64,000 bases of DNA from the NCBI GenBank assembly GCA_016196825.1, contig JACPWY010000019.1, forward strand, positions 22,644 through 86,643, given 5' to 3'. The DNA comes from Deltaproteobacteria bacterium. Its GTDB lineage: Bacteria > Bdellovibrionota > FAC87 > UBA2466. The notes beneath the pieces were generated by a model. That model had not been told where the DNA came from, searched no databases, and saw nothing but the letters and a program-made list of their open reading frames with translations. Positions 1 to 15,376 of the stretch are shown here, piece after piece. Position numbers and translations under genes: made by a program. Every line of letters starts with the position of its first letter. Within the stretch, counting starts at the first letter, position 1.

Positions 1-162
1 CCGGAGATCGAATGGGCCAAATCCGGCGCCGAACTCCACCATCTTCTCAAGGCGCCCAAACCTATCAACATCGAAGACAACTACTTCAAACTCGACGCCA
101 ATCTCACCGAGTGGAAAACCCTGTTGGAGCTTCAGGCCCCTAGCGCGCCTTCGAGTGGCTGA
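1..162 (+). CDS. 3' end of an upstream gene (partial; open from window start, TGA at 160-162)
   Basis: Frame-1 is open from position 1 to a stop at 160-162 (…LTEWKTLLELQAPSAPSSG*). No start codon lies in the window. Function unknown. Confidence 0.3.
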   Translation, partial: PEIEWAKSGAELHHLLKAPKPINIEDNYFKLDANLTEWKTLLELQAPSAPSSG

Positions 163-238
163 GATTGGGCTTGGGACGTTGCGTCATGCGGCCTGTTTGA
201 TTGACGATCCCGAGGGGGTTCCCTATCTTAGCGATGGA

Positions 239-1216
239 ATGGACAAGATTCTTATCACTGGGGCGGACGGCTTCATCGGGAGCCATCTGACGGAGAAGGC
301 CGTGCGTTCGGGTCTTTCGGTCCGCGCTCTCGTTCAGTACAACTGTCGTAACCATTGGGGCTGGCTCGAGGATCTTCCCCAACAGTTTTTGAATTCGGTC
401 GAGGTGATCTCGGGCGACCTGCGTGATCCCTTTTGCATGGAAAAGGCGATGAGCGGGTGTCAAAAGGTCTTCCACCTTGGCGCCCTGATCGCGATTCCGT
501 ATTCCTATGTTGCGCCCCATGAATATATCGCGACTAACGTGGCAGGGACGCTGAATGTGCTCGAGGCGGCTCGCAAAGCGGGCGTGGAGAGATTCATTCA
601 CACCTCCACGAGCGAGGTGTACGGCACTGCTCAATATGTGCCAATCGACGAAAAGCACCCCCTCCAGGGTCAGTCGCCCTATTCAGCGAGTAAGATTGCG
701 GCCGACAAGTTGGCGGAGAGCTTTCACCTTTCGTTTGGGCTGCCGGTGGTGACCGTGCGCCCTTTCAATACCTATGGCCCGCGCCAATCGGCGCGCGCGG
801 TGATTCCGACGATTGTGAGCCAGGCTTTCGACAACCCGGAGATCCGACTGGGATCGCTGACACCGGTCCGGGATCTCACTTTTGTCGAGGACACGGTGAA
901 TGGATTTCTCCTCGCTGCGAAGGCAAGCGGTGGAGTGGGTGAGGTGATCAACCTAGGCGTTGGCAGTGGCGTGACCGTGGGTGATCTGGCGAATCAGATT
1001 CTTGCTCTCATGAAGATGCAAAAGCCGATCGTTCAGGCGGATGAACGGATGCGCCCCGAGAAGAGTGAAGTGATGCGTCTGGTGAGCGACAACAGCAAGG
1101 CGCGCTCGCTCATCGGCTGGGCCCCGCAGGTGACACTCGAAAAGGGACTTTCTCAAACCATTGATTGGATCAGCCAGCACCGCAGCATCTATAAAAGTGG
1201 ACTTTACAATGTGTGA
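239..1216 (+). CDS. NAD-dependent epimerase/dehydratase (extended SDR, nucleotide-sugar 4,6-dehydratase/epimerase family)
   Basis: The ORF 155..1216 has an internal ATG at 239 giving MDKILITGADGFIGSHL, the classic GxxGxxG Rossmann N-terminus. A YxxxK-like SPYSASK motif is present. The 239 start was chosen over 155 because the SDR fold begins there. Confidence 0.75.
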   Translation: MDKILITGADGFIGSHLTEKAVRSGLSVRALVQYNCRNHWGWLEDLPQQFLNSVEVISGDLRDPFCMEKAMSGCQKVFHLGALIAIPYSYVAPHEYIATNVAGTLNVLEAARKAGVERFIHTSTSEVYGTAQYVPIDEKHPLQGQSPYSASKIAADKLAESFHLSFGLPVVTVRPFNTYGPRQSARAVIPTIVSQAFDNPEIRLGSLTPVRDLTFVEDTVNGFLLAAKASGGVGEVINLGVGSGVTVGDLANQILALMKMQKPIVQADERMRPEKSEVMRLVSDNSKARSLIGWAPQVTLEKGLSQTIDWISQHRSIYKSGLYNV

Positions 1217-1225
1217 GGGGAAGCG

Positions 1226-1939
1226 ATGAGGGCGGTGATCTTGGCGGGTGGCCTCGGCACTCGGCTCAGGCCGTATACGACGGTGTTGCCCAAGCCGCTG
1301 ATGCCGATCGGCGATACGCCGATTCTCGAGGTGTTGGTGCGGCAACTCGCTCGCCACAAGATCTGCGAACTGACGGTGACGCTGGGCCACCTGGGAAAAT
1401 TGATCCGCACCTACTTTGGTGATGGGAGCCATTTGGGCGTTCGAATAGACTACTCGATGGAGAGCCAACCACTGGGCACGATGGGGCCGCTCAAGCTCAT
1501 CCCCGATCTGCCCGAGGATTTTCTAGTGTTGAATGGCGATATCCTGACGGATCTCTCCTTCTCAGATTTTTTCCGAAAGCACCGCGAGAGTGGCGCGGGC
1601 TTTACGATCTCCTCTTTTCCGCGCGAAGTGGAGACCAACCTCGGCGTGCTCGAGACGAATGAGACGGGCCAGCTCGTTGGATTTCGCGAGAAGCCAAAGC
1701 TTCCATTTGAGGCCAGTATGGGGATCTACGCGCTGAAACGCTCGGTTGTCGATGACATCCCTGCGGGGCGGCCTTTCGGTTTCGATGATTTGATGCTCCA
1801 GCTCATTCAGTATGGAAAGTTTCCCAATGTGATTCGCCACGAAGGTTTTTGGCTCGATGTGGGTCGCCACGAAGATTTTGAAAGGGCCCAGGTCTATTTC
1901 ACGGATCTGAAATCGTCTCTTTTGGAGGCGGGTGAGTAA
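1226..1939 (+). CDS. sugar-phosphate nucleotidyltransferase (NTP_transferase family)
   Basis: N-terminus MRAVILAGGLGTRLRPYTTVLPKPLMPI is the G-x-G-T-R-L signature of sugar-1-P nucleotidylyltransferases. It lies 10 bp after the upstream epimerase and is translationally coupled to the next gene. Confidence 0.75.
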   Translation: MRAVILAGGLGTRLRPYTTVLPKPLMPIGDTPILEVLVRQLARHKICELTVTLGHLGKLIRTYFGDGSHLGVRIDYSMESQPLGTMGPLKLIPDLPEDFLVLNGDILTDLSFSDFFRKHRESGAGFTISSFPREVETNLGVLETNETGQLVGFREKPKLPFEASMGIYALKRSVVDDIPAGRPFGFDDLMLQLIQYGKFPNVIRHEGFWLDVGRHEDFERAQVYFTDLKSSLLEAGE

Positions 1940-2795
1940 TTCCATTCTTGTGACGGGATCCGAGGGTTTTATCGGCCGCGCTCTCTGCCGGCGACTTCAG
2001 GCTGAGGAGTTTGAGGTTCACCGCTTTTCGCGATCGCTGGGCCACCAGATTCTCTCGGAAGAGGCCTTTCGCCCCTTTTACGACAAACCCATCGGTCAGG
2101 TCGTTCACTTGGCCGGGGAATCTTTTATTCCGACGAGCTGGGAGACACCTGGGCCGTTTTACGCGATGAATACGCTGGGCACGCAAAGAGTGCTGGATTT
2201 TTGTCGACGGATGGGGTCACGGCTGATCTATTTCTCTTCGTTTGTGTACGGGGCCCCAAAGTATTTGCCCATCGATGAAGAACACCCCATCGCGCCGCTC
2301 AACCCTTACACCCATTCACGCTGGTTGGCGGAGGAGCTTTGCGAGTTTTACTCCCAGCGATTCTCCGTCGATTCGGCGATTCTCAGGCCTTTTAACATTT
2401 ATGGGCCTGGTCAGGACGAGCGGTTTTTAATCTCGCAGTGTGTAGGGCAATGGAAGCGGGGCGAGAGGGTGCAGGTGAAGAGCCTGACCCCGCGGCGGGA
2501 TTATCTTTATCTGGATGATCTGGTGGAAGCGACTCTGCTGGTGATCCGGAATCGCGAACTCTCGGGTGTATTTAATATCGGATCGGGGCAATCCTACTCG
2601 GTGCAAGAGATCCTCACGACCCTGCAGGAGCTGATCGGCCCCACCTTCACCTTTGAATGTGTGAATCAGGAGCGCATCGACGAGGTCCCCGAGACGAGGA
2701 GCAGCAGCCGGCTCCAGACGACGGGGCTTTGGAATCCGCGGGTCTCCTTGCGAGAGGGGCTTACGCGTATTCTTCGTGAAGGGGCGATTCTTTGA
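1932..2795 (+). CDS. NAD-dependent epimerase/dehydratase family protein
   Basis: GTG start overlaps the upstream stop. N-terminus SILVTGSEGFIGRAL is a Rossmann motif, and the YxxSK-like YTHSR region fits the SDR family. Confidence 0.7.
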   Translation: MSNSILVTGSEGFIGRALCRRLQAEEFEVHRFSRSLGHQILSEEAFRPFYDKPIGQVVHLAGESFIPTSWETPGPFYAMNTLGTQRVLDFCRRMGSRLIYFSSFVYGAPKYLPIDEEHPIAPLNPYTHSRWLAEELCEFYSQRFSVDSAILRPFNIYGPGQDERFLISQCVGQWKRGERVQVKSLTPRRDYLYLDDLVEATLLVIRNRELSGVFNIGSGQSYSVQEILTTLQELIGPTFTFECVNQERIDEVPETRSSSRLQTTGLWNPRVSLREGLTRILREGAIL

Positions 2796-4018
2796 AACCG
2801 CGCCTTAAGATTTTTCATATCATCACGCGTCTGAATGTTGGTGGGGCGGCGCTCTACAATATCCTTCTGGCCGATGGACTGGCGGATCTGGGGCACGAGG
2901 TGTGGCTTGTGTACGGAACGGTCGAGTCGTCAGAGAGCGAGATGTTCGATTACATGGACCGGAAGGAGTATCGGTTTGTGAAACGATATATCCCCGAGCT
3001 CATGAGAGAAATTCGATTGGGGAAGGACCTCATCGCTTTCTGGAAACTTTTTGTCCTGATCGCGCATGAGCGGCCCGATGTGATCCATACACACACATCG
3101 AAAGCAGGGCTTCTGGGTCGGCTGGCGGCTTGGCTATTGCGCGTGCCGGTCAAGATTCATTCGTATCATGGGACGGTCTTTCAGGGGTATTTCGGCGGAT
3201 TGGCGAGTCGAGCGATTGGCTCATTCGAAAAATTCCTGGGGCAACGGTGTGAAGCCATCTTTGCCGACACAGAGACCGTCGTGAAGCAGGCGACGAGTCG
3301 AGGTGTTGTGCCCAGCGATCGTGCCTTTTCCATGCCGCTGGGACTGGAGCTTGAGCCCTTCGCGGATCTGGCGGGTTTTCGGGGGCGGTTGCGCCGCCAT
3401 TTGGGGATCGGGAAGAGCACGCCTCTCGTCGGTATTGTGGCCCGTCTCACGCAGATCAAAGACGTCGAGACCTTTTTGCGCTCGGTCCCTGCGATTCTCA
3501 AAGCCCATCCCGAGACCCACATCGCCTCAGTGGGCAATGGTGAGCTTCGGATGCAGCTCGAGGAAGAGGCTCGCCGCATGGGGATTGCGGAGCGAGTCCA
3601 CTTTCTGGGTTTTTGGAGAGAGCTCCGCGAAATTTATGCCGACATCGATCTCTTGGCGCTCTCATCGCTTTCAGAGGGGTGCCCGGTCGCAATTCTCGAG
3701 GCGATGGCTTCCGGACTTGCCGTCGTGTCGACGAGCGTCGGCGGCGTCCCCGATGTTGTTCGGGATGGTAAGAACGGACTTCTGGTGCCTTCGCAAGATT
3801 CTGAGGCGATGGCGCAAGCCGTGAATCGATTGCTCTCGGATCGCGATCTCGCCCGACAAATGGGCGCGGCCGGCCAGCGTCTTGTTCTGGAGAAGTTCAC
3901 CGTTGCAGCGTCAGTCACCGCGACCGAAAGCCACTATGTGCGGCTGGTGGGGGAGAAGGCCCGAATCCCAGTTATGGGTGGTCTGATCGGGGGTAAAACT
4001 CTTTCCCATGATTCCTGA
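2792..4018 (+). CDS. glycosyltransferase, GT4/GT1 (GT-B) family
   Basis: TTG start overlaps the upstream stop (TTGA). N-terminus KIFHIITRLNVGGAALY and C-terminal EGCPVAILEAMASGLAVVSTSVGGVPDVV (E-x7-E like) are typical of GT4 enzymes. Confidence 0.75.
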   Translation: MKPRLKIFHIITRLNVGGAALYNILLADGLADLGHEVWLVYGTVESSESEMFDYMDRKEYRFVKRYIPELMREIRLGKDLIAFWKLFVLIAHERPDVIHTHTSKAGLLGRLAAWLLRVPVKIHSYHGTVFQGYFGGLASRAIGSFEKFLGQRCEAIFADTETVVKQATSRGVVPSDRAFSMPLGLELEPFADLAGFRGRLRRHLGIGKSTPLVGIVARLTQIKDVETFLRSVPAILKAHPETHIASVGNGELRMQLEEEARRMGIAERVHFLGFWRELREIYADIDLLALSSLSEGCPVAILEAMASGLAVVSTSVGGVPDVVRDGKNGLLVPSQDSEAMAQAVNRLLSDRDLARQMGAAGQRLVLEKFTVAASVTATESHYVRLVGEKARIPVMGGLIGGKTLSHDS

Positions 4019-6654: not shown

Positions 6655-7500
6655 ATGAGCTCAACATCCGAAACGTTCTCAAGGAGAGTGTTTAGGTTTT
6701 TCGCGGATTCGGTTGTGAATGGTTTGGCGCTGAACAAGGCCAACCGTGTGACATGCCAGCTGGCTGGCCGTCTCTCCCCCACGTTTCATCTCACTCACAA
6801 TGGAATCGACTACGTCTTCGCTTGTCCGAATCCTCTCACCCGCTGGCGAGCGGAAACGTTTGCGGACAAGGAGCCCGAAACCCTGGAGTGGATCGATACA
6901 TTCCAAAAGGGTGCGACGCTGTTCGACATCGGAGCCAATGTTGGAATTTATGCGATCTACGCCGCGAAACGCGGGATCAACGTGATGGCCTTTGAGCCGG
7001 AATCTCAAAATTACGCGCTGATCAATAAGAACGTCTATCTGAATGGTGTGGCCGATCGCGTGAAGTGCCTCAGTGTCGCGCTCTCGGACTGCGATGGCAT
7101 CGACTACCTCTACATTCCGGAATTTCAGGCTGGCGGTGCGCTCAACAACTTTGGTTCGGCCATCGATCTTAACCACCAAGAGTTCAGCCCCGCCTTCAAG
7201 CAGGGCGGACTGTCCTACTCGCTGGATTCCTTCGTGCAGAAGTACACTGAATCCTTTCCCAACCACATCAAGATCGATGTGGATGGGATCGAATTTGCCA
7301 TCGTCCGAGGAGCCGAAAAGACCCTGAGGGATCTGCGGCTTCGATCGCTCTCGATAGAACTCAACGAGGTTTTGCCCGAGTCACCGGCCATACAGACCTT
7401 CATTGAAGGAACGGGTCTTAAGTTTGTCCAAAAGAAACACGCCGCGATGTTCGACGACACCCAGTACAAACAAATTTTTAACTACGTGTTCGGTCGCTGA
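6655..7500 (+). CDS. FkbM family methyltransferase
   Basis: Motif LFDIGANVGIYAIYAAKRGINVMAFEPESQNYALINKNV matches the FkbM-family SAM-binding core (DIGAN.G…FEP). Confidence 0.75.
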   Translation: MSSTSETFSRRVFRFFADSVVNGLALNKANRVTCQLAGRLSPTFHLTHNGIDYVFACPNPLTRWRAETFADKEPETLEWIDTFQKGATLFDIGANVGIYAIYAAKRGINVMAFEPESQNYALINKNVYLNGVADRVKCLSVALSDCDGIDYLYIPEFQAGGALNNFGSAIDLNHQEFSPAFKQGGLSYSLDSFVQKYTESFPNHIKIDVDGIEFAIVRGAEKTLRDLRLRSLSIELNEVLPESPAIQTFIEGTGLKFVQKKHAAMFDDTQYKQIFNYVFGR

Positions 7501-8822
7501 CGAAAAAGCCCAAAGGGATCCACTACCAAGGCTTGGCGGCGTCTCAAATCCTGTGCGTCCGTCACCAAAAAAGGCAGGCTGAGTAGAAGCGCAAAGAGCG
7601 GCGACAGGAATTCAGAGGTGAAGAGGAGCTGCCAGATCAGCGTGACCGAAAGCACGACCCCGAACCCCCAGCGCAATTTCCAGTCGTTCGAACTCCGAAT
7701 ACTCGAGACACACTGTCCAGCGAATAGAAAGAAAAGTGTGATCTGGAGGAGGACCCCAGCGAGTCCAAAGCGGACGAGATTCAAGAGAAGGCCAGCGGCA
7801 TAATGCCTTTCGGCTGGCGACCGGATTCCCATGCCAAACAGCCCGGCCCGGTCCCAGGGTATCCAGGTGTAGGTGTTGACGGTGGTGTTGAAAAACGCCT
7901 CCAGGCGGGCGCCGACGAAGGGGTTCAGCGGCACCTTTTTCTGGAGAACCAAGACGATGAGGACAGCAGCGAAAATGCCGCTGAGGATCGCCAATCGTCG
8001 AAAGAGCCGATTGCGAAACAGCACAATCATCATTGCGATAAAGACCGTTCCGAAGGCGGCGTAAGAATGGTTGATGAAGAGAGCCGCCGCGTGGAGTGGC
8101 AGTGAAATCCAGAGAAAGAGCGGCCAGTCGGCGACCGTGAGCAGAAGACAGGCTACCCCCGCGAGAATGATCAGAGAACCGTATTTCGACTCTGTCGTGT
8201 AGCCGAAGGCTCGATTGAATTCGAGGGGGCCATACTTTACCTCGGCCTCTTTGCGCAGATACCCCAGGCGGTAAGGGTTGATATAGCCTTCGTTGGCGCG
8301 GCCATCGATTTCGGTGTTGGAGAGCTCCGTGAATTTTTCGAGGTTGCCTTGATCGAACGTGTGAAGGATGAGGCATTGAGTGAGAAGGGCAAAGCTCGCG
8401 ATCGTCGTGCCCCAGGCGAAATAGAATCCAGCTCGCTTCACACGATCCGACTGGGAAAAGAGCGAAAGGCAGAAGAGGAGATAGGCCGCCATTTTGAGCG
8501 CCATGCCTCCATCCTCTTCGATGAGCTCGTGCAGCAATAGGTAGACAATGAGACTTCCCAGGATCGCCATGAACCATGCGCCACGCCGGGTCTGGGAGAA
8601 TAGAAGAGTGTGTCGCAGAAAGAGGGTTGCCCCTCTTCGTTCCACTAAGCAGGAGAGAAACCAAATGGCGAGAAGCACGCCGACGACGGCATTGAATCCA
8701 CTCGTCCCGATGACCCCCTTGAACCAGACCGCCTCTTTACTGGTGAGCAGTATGAAAAGCAGAAGGTAGAAAAAGGGAATCATGCCGACGGCCCCCCGGC
8801 ACGGAAGGCCCTGTAAATACAC
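7482..8822 (-). CDS. O-antigen ligase/polymerase-like (Wzy/WaaL family) integral membrane protein
   Basis: 446 aa, multi-TM throughout, with a larger loop in the C-terminal third. It is embedded in a glycan locus. The family assignment is tentative. Confidence 0.45.
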   Translation of the reverse strand: MYLQGLPCRGAVGMIPFFYLLLFILLTSKEAVWFKGVIGTSGFNAVVGVLLAIWFLSCLVERRGATLFLRHTLLFSQTRRGAWFMAILGSLIVYLLLHELIEEDGGMALKMAAYLLFCLSLFSQSDRVKRAGFYFAWGTTIASFALLTQCLILHTFDQGNLEKFTELSNTEIDGRANEGYINPYRLGYLRKEAEVKYGPLEFNRAFGYTTESKYGSLIILAGVACLLLTVADWPLFLWISLPLHAAALFINHSYAAFGTVFIAMMIVLFRNRLFRRLAILSGIFAAVLIVLVLQKKVPLNPFVGARLEAFFNTTVNTYTWIPWDRAGLFGMGIRSPAERHYAAGLLLNLVRFGLAGVLLQITLFFLFAGQCVSSIRSSNDWKLRWGFGVVLSVTLIWQLLFTSEFLSPLFALLLSLPFLVTDAQDLRRRQALVVDPFGLFRQRPNT

Positions 8823-8871: not shown

Positions 8872-10632
8872 TCAAAAGGCTAGGAGCTCGGTTCTCCAGA
8901 TCGAGGCCCAAGCAAGATCGGCGCGGGCGTAGTGCTCGCAGAGCTCTTTTCGTGCCTCCTGCACAATGGTTTGGCTCCACCACGCTGTTGCATCGGAGCC
9001 GATGCGATTGAGCTGGTGGGCCGCTGCCTCCGGGGTAGTCCAAAGAACGCCAGCCTGAATCAATTTTTCAAAAACCGCTTCGGCCTCGGGTTGGAATAGA
9101 AATGTGCCGGGGCGCCAGTAGAGGAGCGTGGGTGCGTTGGCGGCGAATGCCTCGAGGATCGTCGTGGCCGGATGGTTCACAATGATGAGGCCGGCCGAGC
9201 GCAGGTGATGGGAAAACGTGGGCGCGGAATCGAAAGGGATGGCGAGGCGCTGCCAGTGCTCGCTCAGGTTCCAACCGAAATCGGGATTCAATGAGACCCG
9301 GACGATCATTTTTTGGCGGACCTTGTCATCGAGAGCCTCCACGAACCGAGCTTCATCGTCGTAGACCCTTTCCCATTGTGGGCCAGCGGGGTGGCTCTGG
9401 AAGCGCAGAAGCACACGCGGGTGGATCGTAGAAACATGGACGATAGGCCTTGAAGCGGGGGCGCCCTTTTTCCGCTGTCCGATCTTGAGCGCGGCCGAGA
9501 GTTTGAAGGAGGGCATCGGGCGCACGTCGGCTCTGGGCCAAAGCCCCTTCGAAACGCCCCAACTGTAGAAACGATCGGTACACTTTTGTTCGTGTGTCTC
9601 CAGACAATTGAAAGCGAGAACTCCATAGTAGCCGCCGTGCTGGAGCGAGCAGAGGTGGGCGCCGCGATTGGCGGCGGCCTCGGCCGCGAGAATCTTGAAC
9701 ATCTCATCACCGCACCAGCTGGTGCCCGAGACGATGGTGCGGGCCTTGAGAGGTCGATTCTTGGCACATTTTCTCCACTCCTCGAAGTTTTCCACGTAGA
9801 GCGTCGGGATCTCCCTCTCTATCAGGCTGGCAAGAATACTTTCGAAGCGATCTTGGCTGGACCAACCACGAAAGAGCTCGCCGCGCAGCGTGGGGTCCTT
9901 CTGCGCCTTGCCGACGGAGACAGGCGGCAGCCTTTCACTGTAGACTACACCGAGACCCTGCTTCAGGAACTCACAAGAGGCCGCGCGTGGCATCGCTCCG
10001 CCAACTATGATCGCCTCGGCTCTTCGAAGAAATACCAACCAAACTTGTGCCTCAAACGATCGCAAAGTGTTCTTCCACGAGAACGTCTTTGGGAGGGTGT
10101 GGAGCCTGCTTTGCCGTTTGATCTGAGCCCCTAGCTTTTCCGCGAGTAGGGTCGAGATCTGGAGATTGTAATGGTCCGAAAGAAGATGATCGAGGGAGGT
10201 GGTTGAAAAGTCGGGCAGGAGAAGAAAGTCCTTTTCCGCTAGGCCGATGCACTTCACGGAGGAATTATTCTGAAAGATAGGTTCGAGTGCCCGGTACCGA
10301 TCGTAAAGAGCCTCGGTGAAATAGAGTAGCCATGGGCCGATGAGAATACGCCAGTAGCGCTCGTTTCGATCGAGCCCGTGAAGCGCGTTGAGCCGAGGTG
10401 TCAGCTCCCTGAGGACGCGATCGACGAGCACCTCTGTATAGCGGGCCGCCGCTCGAAATTGCTCCGGATCATCCCACGGGTAGGGGGAGATCGAAACGCG
10501 GCCGGAACGCAAAAGCTCTTCGTAATGGGGCAGTGGCTTTCGCGGCAAACACCACCGGCCGGGCGCGGTCACCGGGCCTTCGCGGGGCCAAAAATTGGGA
10601 TCATCGCAAAGGACGAGCTGAATCTCTTTCAC
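8872..10632 (-). CDS. hypothetical protein of glycan locus (586 aa); possibly a large O-antigen-cluster transferase
   Basis: GTG start overlaps the upstream gene stop (GTGA). No motif I can name with confidence. Size and context resemble the 'LIC12162-type' putative transferases of O-antigen loci, but that is speculation. Confidence 0.35.
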   Translation of the reverse strand: MKEIQLVLCDDPNFWPREGPVTAPGRWCLPRKPLPHYEELLRSGRVSISPYPWDDPEQFRAAARYTEVLVDRVLRELTPRLNALHGLDRNERYWRILIGPWLLYFTEALYDRYRALEPIFQNNSSVKCIGLAEKDFLLLPDFSTTSLDHLLSDHYNLQISTLLAEKLGAQIKRQSRLHTLPKTFSWKNTLRSFEAQVWLVFLRRAEAIIVGGAMPRAASCEFLKQGLGVVYSERLPPVSVGKAQKDPTLRGELFRGWSSQDRFESILASLIEREIPTLYVENFEEWRKCAKNRPLKARTIVSGTSWCGDEMFKILAAEAAANRGAHLCSLQHGGYYGVLAFNCLETHEQKCTDRFYSWGVSKGLWPRADVRPMPSFKLSAALKIGQRKKGAPASRPIVHVSTIHPRVLLRFQSHPAGPQWERVYDDEARFVEALDDKVRQKMIVRVSLNPDFGWNLSEHWQRLAIPFDSAPTFSHHLRSAGLIIVNHPATTILEAFAANAPTLLYWRPGTFLFQPEAEAVFEKLIQAGVLWTTPEAAAHQLNRIGSDATAWWSQTIVQEARKELCEHYARADLAWASIWRTELLAF

Positions 10633-12398
10633 AGCGAGTGGTCTTCGGCGACCTGGATGAACTCCGCCGCCTTGGCACCGATCCCGAGAGCTTCGCCCAT
10701 GGGGCCGAGGCGGGCGAGATCGGAGCCGGTGTCGATGTCGAACCTCAAATCTTCACGCGCCAACGCATCGGGGGCTGGGAAGGTGGCGATCTCAAATTCG
10801 TGCGCATGATCCCAAAGGTAGCTCGTCACGTGTTCGCGGTGGGCTGGGCAAGTGGCCACCCGATCGATCTCGCCCAGAATCTGAGCAGAGAGGACCTCGG
10901 CTCCAAACCCATCGGCATAGCCATTCCCCAACCGGCTCACGTGATTGAACGCGTAGTCGGGGCGCTGGTGGAGGAAATGTGTCACCACGCGATCGATCTC
11001 TTCGGGCTCGATGAATGGGTTATCAGCGCAAACTCTCACGACGATATCGGCGCCGCCCACCTGCGCGGCCAGGACAAAACGCGAAAGGACATCGTTTTCA
11101 TCGCCCCGAACAGTCTGAATTCCCAACTCAGTTGCGACGGTCTCGAGGGCGTCGTTGCGCGGGTCGCTCGAGGACGCAAGAATGACTTGGTTCACGAGTT
11201 TCGACCGCTGAACTCGTTCGAGAACCCAGGAGATCAGCGGGCGGTCGCCGATCTTGGCCATCATTTTCCCCGGGAAGCGAGTGGAACCCATGCGAGCCTG
11301 AACCACCGCCACAACCTTGTCTTTCCAGGGGGAGAGGTCGAGATCCTTCCACTGAAGAACATGGTCTTCAGTGAGGTCAGTGGTCACTCGAGTGCCCAAG
11401 ATTCTATCCCAGTGAAGAGGGCTCACGCCGAGGCCGGGCCTTTTGTATGTGATATCGAGCTCGCTGAGGGGCTGTCCCTTCTTGACACTTTTTGCGAGGA
11501 CGATGCTCCGGCGAGCGTTTTTGCGGGAAACCTCTTCCGAAGGGAGTGGGGCCTTTTCACGGCTGCCCAAAAGCACTTGAATCCGCCGGGCGTTTCTGAC
11601 GAACACAGCGCAATCACACGAATCCATGGCATGGTAGTGGTCATTCCCCGGAAGGGATTTGTCGTTTGTGAAGTGCTTTTCGATAATTCGGGCCCCCATC
11701 GAGTAGGCCGCTGTGAGCGTGGTCATCGTCGAATCGGGGAGAGAATGGTCAGAGTAGCCCACGATCAAATTGGGGTAGCGCTCCATCAGAGACGGAATCA
11801 TGTTGAGGTGAACATGCGGATCGGGCGTGGGGTAGTTCAGCACGCAGTGGAGCAACGCAATTTCGCGGCACCCCGCCTCTGTGAGGGTCCGGATCGCCTC
11901 ATCCACCTCACCGAGTCGGCTGGCACCGGTCGAGAGCACTATGGGTTTCCCGAAGCGAGCCACTCGACGGAGAAGCGGGGTCGTCGTGAGATCTGCCGAG
12001 GCGACTTTAAAAAACGGCATCAGCGGTGCGAGCAGATCCACTGCTTCGTCATCAAATGGGGTCGAAAGAAAATCGATTCCGACCTGTTCGCAGTGTTTGG
12101 CCAGAAGGCGGTATTCTTCGGGGCCAAACGCATCGAGTTTGCTGAAGAGATCAAATTGATTGGTGGTGGGCTCTTTCGAGAGGTCCCAATAGGATGGGCT
12201 GTGTTTCGAGGCGAGCTTGCCCGCTTTGTAGGTCTGGAATTTTGCAGCGTCGGCTCCGCCCTCTTGGGCCAGCTCGATGAGCTTTTTGGCGCGCTCGAGG
12301 GATCCTTCGTGGTTCACACCGATTTCGGCGATGACGTAGGGCAAGGAGTTTTCCGAAAGGTCGCAGGAGCCAAGTCGAATCTGTCGCATATCAAACAC
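10629..12398 (-). CDS. bifunctional nonulosonic-acid synthase (NeuB/PseI/LegI-like, N-terminal) fused to acylneuraminate cytidylyltransferase-like domain (C-terminal)
   Basis: N-terminus LPYVIAEIGVNHEGSLERAKKLIELAQEGGADAAKFQTY is the NeuB-family signature, followed by a SAF domain. From about aa 350, KVVAVVQARMGSTRFPGKMMAKIGDRPLISWVLERV is the CMP-sugar synthetase (CTP_transf_3) signature. Confidence 0.75.
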   Translation of the reverse strand: MFDMRQIRLGSCDLSENSLPYVIAEIGVNHEGSLERAKKLIELAQEGGADAAKFQTYKAGKLASKHSPSYWDLSKEPTTNQFDLFSKLDAFGPEEYRLLAKHCEQVGIDFLSTPFDDEAVDLLAPLMPFFKVASADLTTTPLLRRVARFGKPIVLSTGASRLGEVDEAIRTLTEAGCREIALLHCVLNYPTPDPHVHLNMIPSLMERYPNLIVGYSDHSLPDSTMTTLTAAYSMGARIIEKHFTNDKSLPGNDHYHAMDSCDCAVFVRNARRIQVLLGSREKAPLPSEEVSRKNARRSIVLAKSVKKGQPLSELDITYKRPGLGVSPLHWDRILGTRVTTDLTEDHVLQWKDLDLSPWKDKVVAVVQARMGSTRFPGKMMAKIGDRPLISWVLERVQRSKLVNQVILASSSDPRNDALETVATELGIQTVRGDENDVLSRFVLAAQVGGADIVVRVCADNPFIEPEEIDRVVTHFLHQRPDYAFNHVSRLGNGYADGFGAEVLSAQILGEIDRVATCPAHREHVTSYLWDHAHEFEIATFPAPDALAREDLRFDIDTGSDLARLGPMGEALGIGAKAAEFIQVAEDHSL

Positions 12399-13599
12399 CC
12401 CGTCGGGATCGAAATTGATCTAGGATCCCTTTGAGGCTCGAGATCAGGTAGCCCTCTTGCTCTTCCGTCATCCAGTGCTGGAAGGGGAGCGAGATCATAT
12501 TGTCGAAGATAGAATTGGCGTTGGGGCACTGGGCCGCTCCAAATCCGGCCTTTTGGAAAAGCGGATAGCGATTGAGCGGGCAGTACCGCACGTCGGAGCG
12601 AATGCCGTACTCAAACACCAACATATCCATGAATTCGTTTCGAGAGCGGCCCAGCGCTTGGGGATCCACGATCATCGGCAGGAGATGGTAGCTGTGGCCG
12701 CAGTCGTCGGGCTGCTTCTGGAAGCGCACCTCCGGGTAATCCTTGAGAGCTGATCGGACCCTCTCGGCGCGGGCGGCGCGATCGGCGTTCATGGATGCCA
12801 CTCGATCGATCAAGGCCGATCCCAGGCCACATTGAATCTCTCCGAGACAGAAATTGTAGGGCCAGAATCCTTCGAAATCGAAATCGATATTGGACATCGC
12901 GGGGACCCAGTAGCGTTCGCGGGCCCCTTCGAACGGGCGCATGCCATTGTGCCGAAGGCCGGGTACAAGCTTGGCCTTCTCCGCATCGCGCACCGTGAGG
13001 ACTCCCCCCTCACCGAGGGTGCTGATGTTTTTGTGGGTGTGGAGACTGTAGCAACCGAAGTCGCCCAACGTTCCCGAAGGGCGTCCTTTGTAGGCGGCGC
13101 CGATCGATTGGGCGGCGTCTTCGACGACCAGGAGATTGTGTTTCCTGGCAAGCAGAAGAATCGGATCCATGTCGGAGACAAGGCCGTAGAGGTGAACCAC
13201 CACGATAGCGCGTGTTTTGGGCGTGATGAGGGGTTCGAGAGTGGCGGCGGTGGCGAGAAAGGTGTCGCGATCGGAGTCGGCCCAGACCAGCTTGGCGCCA
13301 GTGCGCCCGAAGGGAATGGCGGAGGCGGCAAAGGTGTGGACCGGAAGAATGACCTCATCGCCGGGCTTCAGGCGGCACAGAATGGCCGAAAGTTCGAGCG
13401 CGGCCGTTCCTGTGGCAACGGCAAAGGCGTGTTCGGCGTTGAACACGCGGCAAAACTTTTTCTCAAACTCATCCTGGTGGCGCCCCTGGGTCATCGGGTC
13501 CGCCTGTCGCATCAGATCGGCGACGAGGCGCACCTCTTCATCCGTGTATTGGTGTCCTCGGCCACTCAAAGGAACTCGATAGGTCGGTGGCGAGGTCAC
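12391..13599 (-). CDS. DegT/DnrJ/EryC1/StrS family PLP-dependent sugar aminotransferase
   Basis: …[25 protein letters not shown]… is typical of the family. It overlaps both neighbours by 4-8 bp, indicating an operon. Confidence 0.8.
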
Positions 13600-14266: not shown

Positions 14267-15376
14267 TTAGATCCGTTGGAACAGCTCCCGGACTTTGCGG
14301 AGGGTGAGAGTGTCTTTGTAGTGCACCCCCAAAGCATTGGTCAGGGGCCGTTCGTGAATCACCGTCGACTGATAGAGCCGCTCCATCTGCCCGTCGGACA
14401 ACCCTCGGCAAACATCACTGGGAAGGGTGATTCCCTGCGCCTTTAACATCTTTTTGAAGTGGGCGGTCTCGCGGGGGTAGTAGTCCTGCATTTGGTTCAT
14501 GACGAGGCAGTTGGCGAGGCAATGGTGAATCCCGAGCACGACACTGAGGCCGGCCGAGAATGGGTGGACCACTCCAACGTAGCTATTCGCGATAGCGCAC
14601 CCACCGAGATAGGAGGCGACCATCAGCTTTTCGCGGTTGGCGAGCGCCATCATTTCGTTCGAATCGAAAACTTCCGAGACCAAGCGCAACGCCTCGTGGG
14701 AAAAGGCATCCCCTACGGGGTGCCGATAACTCCCCGCGAGGGATTCGATGCAATGGATGTAGGTGTCCATCCCTGTGTAGAAATACTGCTCTTTTGGCAC
14801 CGACTCGGTGAGGTCGGGATCGAGGATGAGTTGGTCATAGAGCGTAAATTCGCTGTTCATCCCGAGCTTCAGGTTTTTCTTCTCGTTCATGAGAACGCAG
14901 GTGCGTGAGGCCTCGGCCCCCGTCCCAGAAACGGTGGGGATCCCAATCTTGTAGAGGGCCGGTTTTTTGACGAGGTCCCAACCCTGGAAGTCTTCCGCCT
15001 TTCCTCCGTTGGTGAGGAGATTGGCGACCGCCTTGGCGACGTCGAGAGTGATTCCTCCGCCCATTCCGACGACGCAGCAGGGGGCTTTCGCCGAATGTTT
15101 GCGAACGTTTGCGGTCATGTGGTCCGCGAGATCGGTGGTGGGTTCGAGGGCGGTCTCAACGAAAACGAGAAGATCCTGAGGGCGGACCGGGAACGCCAAG
15201 GAACCTAACCTTCCTCGGAAAAAGGCGTCTACGAAAAAGACCACAAAATCGTCAGCCGTGGTTCGGCGGGCGGCCAGCAGAGTCTCAAGCCCCCGAACAG
15301 CCCCGCGGCCAAAGGCGTAGCGGGCGATGTTTTTTGAGTTGGTAAATGTCTCCACCTTCGCCGCAAAGGTAATCAA
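14267..15376 (-). CDS. iron-containing alcohol dehydrogenase / dehydroquinate-synthase-like oxidoreductase
   Basis: [20 protein letters not shown] matches the GGGSxxDxAK motif of Fe-ADH/DHQS-like enzymes. First gene of the minus-strand glycan operon. Confidence 0.65.

What the first reader, a model, noticed from the sequence alone, without database searches (positions are those of the whole stretch)
10629..12398. Fused nonulosonic-acid synthase (NeuB-like) and CMP-sugar cytidylyltransferase in one 589-aa protein
The N-terminal 340 aa carry the NeuB/PseI/LegI aldolase signature plus a SAF domain. The C-terminal 240 aa carry the CMP-NeuAc-synthetase-type cytidylyltransferase signature (MGSTRFPGK). 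These steps are normally separate enzymes in Neu/Pse/Leg pathways, so the fusion would channel the 9-carbon sugar directly into CMP activation.

The gene sits in an operon with a DegT aminotransferase, GT2, Fe-ADH and a nucleotidyltransferase/epimerase set. This is consistent with a legionaminic/pseudaminic-type pathway. No obvious UDP-sugar 2-epimerase/hydrolase or N-acetyltransferase is seen in the window, so the pathway may be non-canonical or partly encoded elsewhere.
Basis: partly seen in the sequence, partly recalled or inferred. Interest (0 to 1): 0.55.

Follow-up and report, generated by a model that had tools for sequence, protein, structure and literature searches.

The report
Fused ulosonic-acid synthase and CMP-activating enzyme
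One real gene encodes both the enzyme that builds a sialic-acid-like sugar acid and the enzyme that activates it with CMP; the fusion itself is a recurrent and fairly ordinary event, but its operon points to an unstudied, widespread pathway that probably adds an amino group to that sugar.

Summary
The ORF is on the minus strand (10629-12398) and probably starts at ATG 12389, giving 586 aa. It carries NeuB (1.7e-73), SAF (3.3e-09) and CTP_transf_3 (9.7e-27) domains, and catalytic residues are kept in both halves. It is not a frameshift: 28 cluster representatives at 46-64% identity (44 fused proteins counting remoter ones) have the same in-frame architecture.

The fusion is not special. In most relatives the same two genes are adjacent but separate. 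Fused forms are scattered through the tree, and the reverse order (CT then NeuB) also exists.

The synthase scores below NCBIfam's cut-offs for both the Neu5Ac synthase and the pseudaminic acid synthase models. The cytidylyltransferase half is SpsF/6OEW-type, not NeuA/PseF/KdsB.

The more interesting result is the context. The gene sits in a tightly packed operon: Fe-ADH, small GT2, DegT aminotransferase, the fusion, a LIC12162-family GT-B protein, and a Wzy-like membrane protein. The Fe-ADH is 43% identical to Shewanella KdnB (Kdo 8-oxidase). In the commoner version of the cassette the aminotransferase is a KdnA orthologue.

This five-part cassette recurs across many phyla, usually without any sugar 4,6-dehydratase nearby. 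That argues against a canonical legionaminic or pseudaminic route. It favours a terminally aminated ulosonic acid, by analogy with Kdo8N. That product is inferred, not shown.

The parts
10629..12398 (-). Fused synthase/cytidylyltransferase gene. The ORF runs from GTG 12398; the probable real start is ATG 12389, giving 586 aa. The stop TGA at 10629-10631 overlaps the GTG start of the next gene.
11553..12281 (-). NeuB TIM-barrel domain (aa 40-282). It keeps the equivalents of N. meningitidis NeuB residues E25, K53, Q55, T110, K129, S132, S154, Y186, S213, H215, E234, H236 and D247.
   Evidence: Pfam 1.7e-73; alignment to 1XUU; Foldseek TM 0.88 to 1XUU/4IPJ
11340..11513 (-). SAF (antifreeze-like) domain, aa 296-353. 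It contains K319-R320-P321, the equivalent of the essential R314 of NmNeuB.
   Evidence: Pfam 3.3e-09
11316..11339 (-). Short linker (aa 354-361, DLSPWKDK) at the place where unfused relatives have the NeuB stop and the CT start.
10632..11315 (-). SpsF/6OEW-type cytidylyltransferase domain (aa 362-589). It has the CTP loop QARMGSTRFPGK (aa 367-378), the D459-N-P motif (the GDEP equivalent of KdsB), E522-H523 and D554/D556.
   Evidence: Pfam 9.7e-27; 6OEW 5e-29 and KdsB alignments; Foldseek TM 0.89; invariant columns
14267..15376 (-). First gene of the operon: an iron-type alcohol dehydrogenase, KdnB-like (Kdo 8-oxidase family).
   Evidence: 5K8C 3e-93 and 3RF7 1.9e-94, full length; 43% identity
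13596..14264 (-). Small soluble GT2-fold protein (222 aa from ATG 14264, 2 nt after the Fe-ADH stop). It is almost always the gene immediately upstream of this NeuB clade.
   Evidence: Pfam Glycos_transf_2 2.2e-29; PDB 6P61 3.1e-92
12391..13599 (-). DegT-family PLP aminotransferase. This subtype resembles PseC and perosamine synthase. In most relatives a KdnA orthologue holds the same cassette position.
8872..10632 (-). LIC12162-family protein, translationally coupled to the fusion gene through a GTGA overlap. The predicted fold is GT-B, so it is a probable transferase for the activated sugar.
7482..8822 (-). Last gene of the operon: a 446-aa membrane protein with about 8 predicted TM segments and no family hit. 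It is Wzy-, flippase- or ligase-like by position only. A terminator-like hairpin follows at 7456-7440.
155..4018 (+). Separate plus-strand module: LegB-like 4,6-dehydratase (155-1216), sugar-1-P nucleotidyltransferase (1226-1939), SDR reductase/epimerase (1932-2795) and GT4 (2792-4018). It may feed the same glycan. In L001 homologues of these genes sit directly upstream of the cassette.

Best explanation
The gene encodes a real bifunctional enzyme made by fusing two neighbouring genes of one pathway.

The two halves:
- The N-terminal NeuB/SAF half condenses phosphoenolpyruvate with an aldose to give a 3-deoxy-2-ulosonic acid, most likely a nine-carbon nonulosonic acid.
- The C-terminal SpsF/6OEW-type half uses CTP to turn an ulosonic acid into its CMP-activated donor.

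The operon has six tightly packed, co-directional genes: KdnB-like Fe-ADH, small GT2, DegT aminotransferase, the fusion, a LIC12162 GT-B protein and a multi-TM membrane protein.

The most likely flow:
1. The synthase makes the sugar acid.
2. The Fe-ADH oxidises its terminal CH2OH to an aldehyde.
3. The aminotransferase converts the aldehyde to an amine, as KdnB and KdnA do for Kdo to give Kdo8N.
4. The cytidylyltransferase half activates the product.
5. The LIC12162 protein transfers it to a surface glycan, which the membrane protein helps to assemble.

Shown: domain identities, conservation of catalytic residues, reality and recurrence of the fusion, operon packing, and conservation of the cassette.

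Inferred: the aldose, the order of steps, the position of amination, and the acceptor.

If amination comes before activation, the fusion joins the first and last steps. It would then serve stoichiometry or complex formation rather than direct channelling.

My confidence is about 0.85 that this is a genuine bifunctional synthase/CMP-transferase, and about 0.35 that the product is terminally aminated.
For: Domains and folds:
- Pfam and NCBIfam hits.
- PDB sequence hits to SpsE 1VLI, NmNeuB 1XUU, PseI 8H2C, and 6OEW for the C-terminal half.
- AF2 model with pLDDT 91.4. Its N-terminal half superposes on NeuB (TM 0.88) and its C-terminal half on 6OEW (TM 0.89).
- Catalytic and metal-binding residues of NmNeuB and the CTP loop and D-x-P motif of KdsB-type enzymes are conserved and invariant across 19 fused homologues.

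The fusion is real and recurrent:
- 44 NeuB-then-CT fusions and 19 CT-then-NeuB fusions among the 268 proteins retrieved.
- In 80 genome loci of the clade the two genes are mostly adjacent and separate, and fused in 3.

Function of SpsF-type enzymes: in B. subtilis, spsF is not needed to make legionaminic acid but is needed to transfer it. That fits a CMP-activating step (PMC7439481).

Operon packing: gaps or overlaps of 2, -4, 1 and -4 nt.

Oxidase and aminotransferase logic:
- The Fe-ADH matches KdnB at 3e-93 with 43% identity.
- The commoner cassette aminotransferase matches KdnA at 4.9e-89, against 3.5e-43 for the next hit.
- In some loci the Fe-ADH is replaced by another group-III ADH whose best matches are primary-alcohol enzymes such as methanol, propanediol and lactaldehyde dehydrogenases.
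- The cassette is present in Actinomycetota, which do not make Kdo (my own knowledge). The substrate there should therefore be the NeuB product.
- 34 of 39 complete cassettes have no SDR dehydratase or epimerase within 10 kb.
Against: - No biochemical data exist for any member of this NeuB clade, this CT subtype, the small GT2 or the LIC12162 family.
- The window's own aminotransferase is not the KdnA subtype. It resembles enzymes that act on NDP-4-keto sugars: PseC 214 bits, perosamine synthase 1e-48.
- A LegB-like dehydratase (452.8 bits against cut-off 475) and a PtmE/ManC-like nucleotidyltransferase lie in the window, and in L001 directly upstream of the cassette. A 9-deoxy, Leg-like product therefore cannot be excluded for this particular locus.
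- The role of the near-universal small GT2 is unexplained.
- Gemmatimonadaceae relatives keep GT2-NeuB-CT without any Fe-ADH or DegT, so amination is an add-on and not intrinsic to the synthase/CT pair.
- The tree is neighbour-joining without support values.
- The genome scan used peptide patterns specific to this clade, and only the best 80 of at least 595 loci were kept.
Confidence: 0.75

Rival explanations
1. One reading: this is a canonical legionaminic- or pseudaminic-type pathway. The fusion makes and activates a 5,7-diacetamido-3,5,7,9-tetradeoxy-nonulosonic acid. The missing steps (N-acetyltransferase, hydrolysing 2-epimerase or hydrolase) are encoded elsewhere or carried out by the small GT2 or the LIC12162 GT-B protein.
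For: - A LegB-like 4,6-dehydratase scores just under its cut-off (452.8 against 475). A PtmE/ManC-like nucleotidyltransferase and an SDR are also in the window.
- The same three genes are directly upstream of the cassette in L001.
- The window DegT scores 214 bits on PseC and 153 on the LegC family.
- The best solved relative of the synthase half is B. subtilis SpsE, a legionaminic acid synthase.
Against: - The synthase is below the cut-offs of both TIGR03569 and PseI.
- No acetyltransferase or Epimerase_2 protein was found among the window ORFs scanned.
- The KdnB-like Fe-ADH has no role in Leg or Pse synthesis.
- 34 of 39 complete cassettes have no dehydratase within 10 kb.
- LIC12162 is present near only about 10 of 50 well-flanked loci, so it is not a core step.
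- The dehydratase, nucleotidyltransferase, SDR and GT4 set is a self-sufficient 6-deoxyhexose module on the other strand.
Confidence: 0.2
2. The product is an eight-carbon acid: a Kdo8N-like sugar made by a NeuB-type synthase from an unphosphorylated pentose, then aminated and CMP-activated exactly as in Shewanella.
For: - Orthologue-level matches of the cassette's oxidase and aminotransferase to the Kdo-specific KdnB and KdnA.
- The CT half's nearest named families are KdsB-type Kdo cytidylyltransferases.
Against: - All characterised NeuB-family enzymes make nine-carbon acids (my own knowledge).
- The R314 equivalent, which contacts the 2-acetamido group in NmNeuB (my own knowledge of the 1XUZ/4IPI work), is conserved, as is the rest of the hexose pocket.
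- KdsB equivalog models score far below their cut-offs, 34-75 bits against 155-281.
Confidence: 0.08
3. The two halves do not act on the same sugar. The C-terminal domain would activate a different substrate or have a regulatory or scaffolding role, so the fusion would be a genomic accident of neighbouring genes.
For: - The SpsF/6OEW subtype has never been assayed in vitro.
- Related CT domains are fused to quite different partners: DUF4910/DUF2172 aminopeptidase-like domains in Sulfuritalea and Dechloromonas, and a class-III aminotransferase in Gemmatimonadaceae.
Against: - The NeuB-CT adjacency is kept across many phyla (42 of 50 well-flanked loci). Fusions arose repeatedly and in both orders, the classic sign of functional coupling.
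- The CTP-binding and Mg-binding motifs are invariant.
- The spsF genetics fit activation of the SpsE product.
Confidence: 0.07
4. Assembly or sequencing artefact: two separate genes joined by a lost stop codon or a frameshift in a metagenome-assembled contig.
For: - Unfused relatives have a 4-nt stop/start overlap exactly at this point, so a single-base error could join them.
- The source appears to be a MAG.
Against: - The identical protein is on 3 contigs.
- 27 further cluster representatives at 46-64% identity, from JGI, ENA, Logan and NCBI, are fused with linkers of varying length.
- The linker is in frame, and the AF2 model is confident through it (block pLDDT about 88).
Confidence: 0.02

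Closest known systems
Bacillus subtilis SpsE (PDB 1VLI) and SpsF: legionaminic acid synthase and putative CMP-Leg synthetase of the spore-crust sps operon
   Same: The same two protein families, encoded side by side and in the same order. SpsE is the best solved match to the N-terminal half (2e-55). The sps operon also carries a GT2 (SpsA) and a DegT aminotransferase (SpsC). Genetics place SpsF after sugar synthesis and before transfer (PMC7439481).
   Different: In B. subtilis the two are separate proteins. The sps pathway also needs SpsM (dehydratase), SpsD (acetyltransferase) and SpsG, none of which belongs to this cassette, and it has no Fe-ADH. The synthase here is a distinct clade with its own signatures: PGNDHYHAM, ARRS, and D136 in place of E134.
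Neisseria meningitidis NeuB (SiaC; PDB 1XUU, 1XUZ, 4IPI) with NeuA: the canonical Neu5Ac synthase and CMP-Neu5Ac synthetase
   Same: TIM barrel plus SAF fold (TM 0.88). All metal-, PEP- and sugar-binding residues that I checked are conserved, including the R314 equivalent. Both use two-step make-then-activate logic.
   Different: Only 29-30% identity. The protein scores below the TIGR03569 cut-off. The activating half is not NeuA-type: the only NeuA-like PDB hit is PpNeuA at 1.3e-05. There is no NeuC in the window.
Shewanella oneidensis KdnB and KdnA (PDB 5K8C, 5K8B): Kdo 8-oxidase and 8-amino-Kdo transaminase of the Kdo8N pathway
   Same: The operon's Fe-ADH matches KdnB over its full length (3e-93, 43% identity). 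In most cassettes the aminotransferase is a KdnA orthologue (4.9e-89). Both systems pair an ulosonic acid with an oxidase, a transaminase and a cytidylyltransferase.
   Different: In Shewanella the acid is Kdo, made by KdsA from arabinose 5-phosphate and activated by KdsB. Here the acid comes from a NeuB-type synthase and is activated by an SpsF-type enzyme. The window's own aminotransferase is a different DegT subtype.
Leptospira O-antigen locus proteins: cytidylyltransferase 6OEW and NeuB 6NCS from L. borgpetersenii, the glycosyltransferase of PDB entry 6P61 (organism not shown by the tools), and the LIC12162 family. Also the L. interrogans NeuB-phosphatase fusion.
   Same: The CT half, the small GT2 and the downstream gene each have their best or only named relative in this set: 6OEW 5e-29, 6P61 3e-92, and TIGR04331 at 387.6 bits. 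Leptospira also shows that NeuB is prone to fusing with a pathway partner (PMC3438082).
   Different: The Leptospira proteins are separate polypeptides whose functions have not been assayed. The Leptospira fusion partner is a phosphatase, not a cytidylyltransferase.

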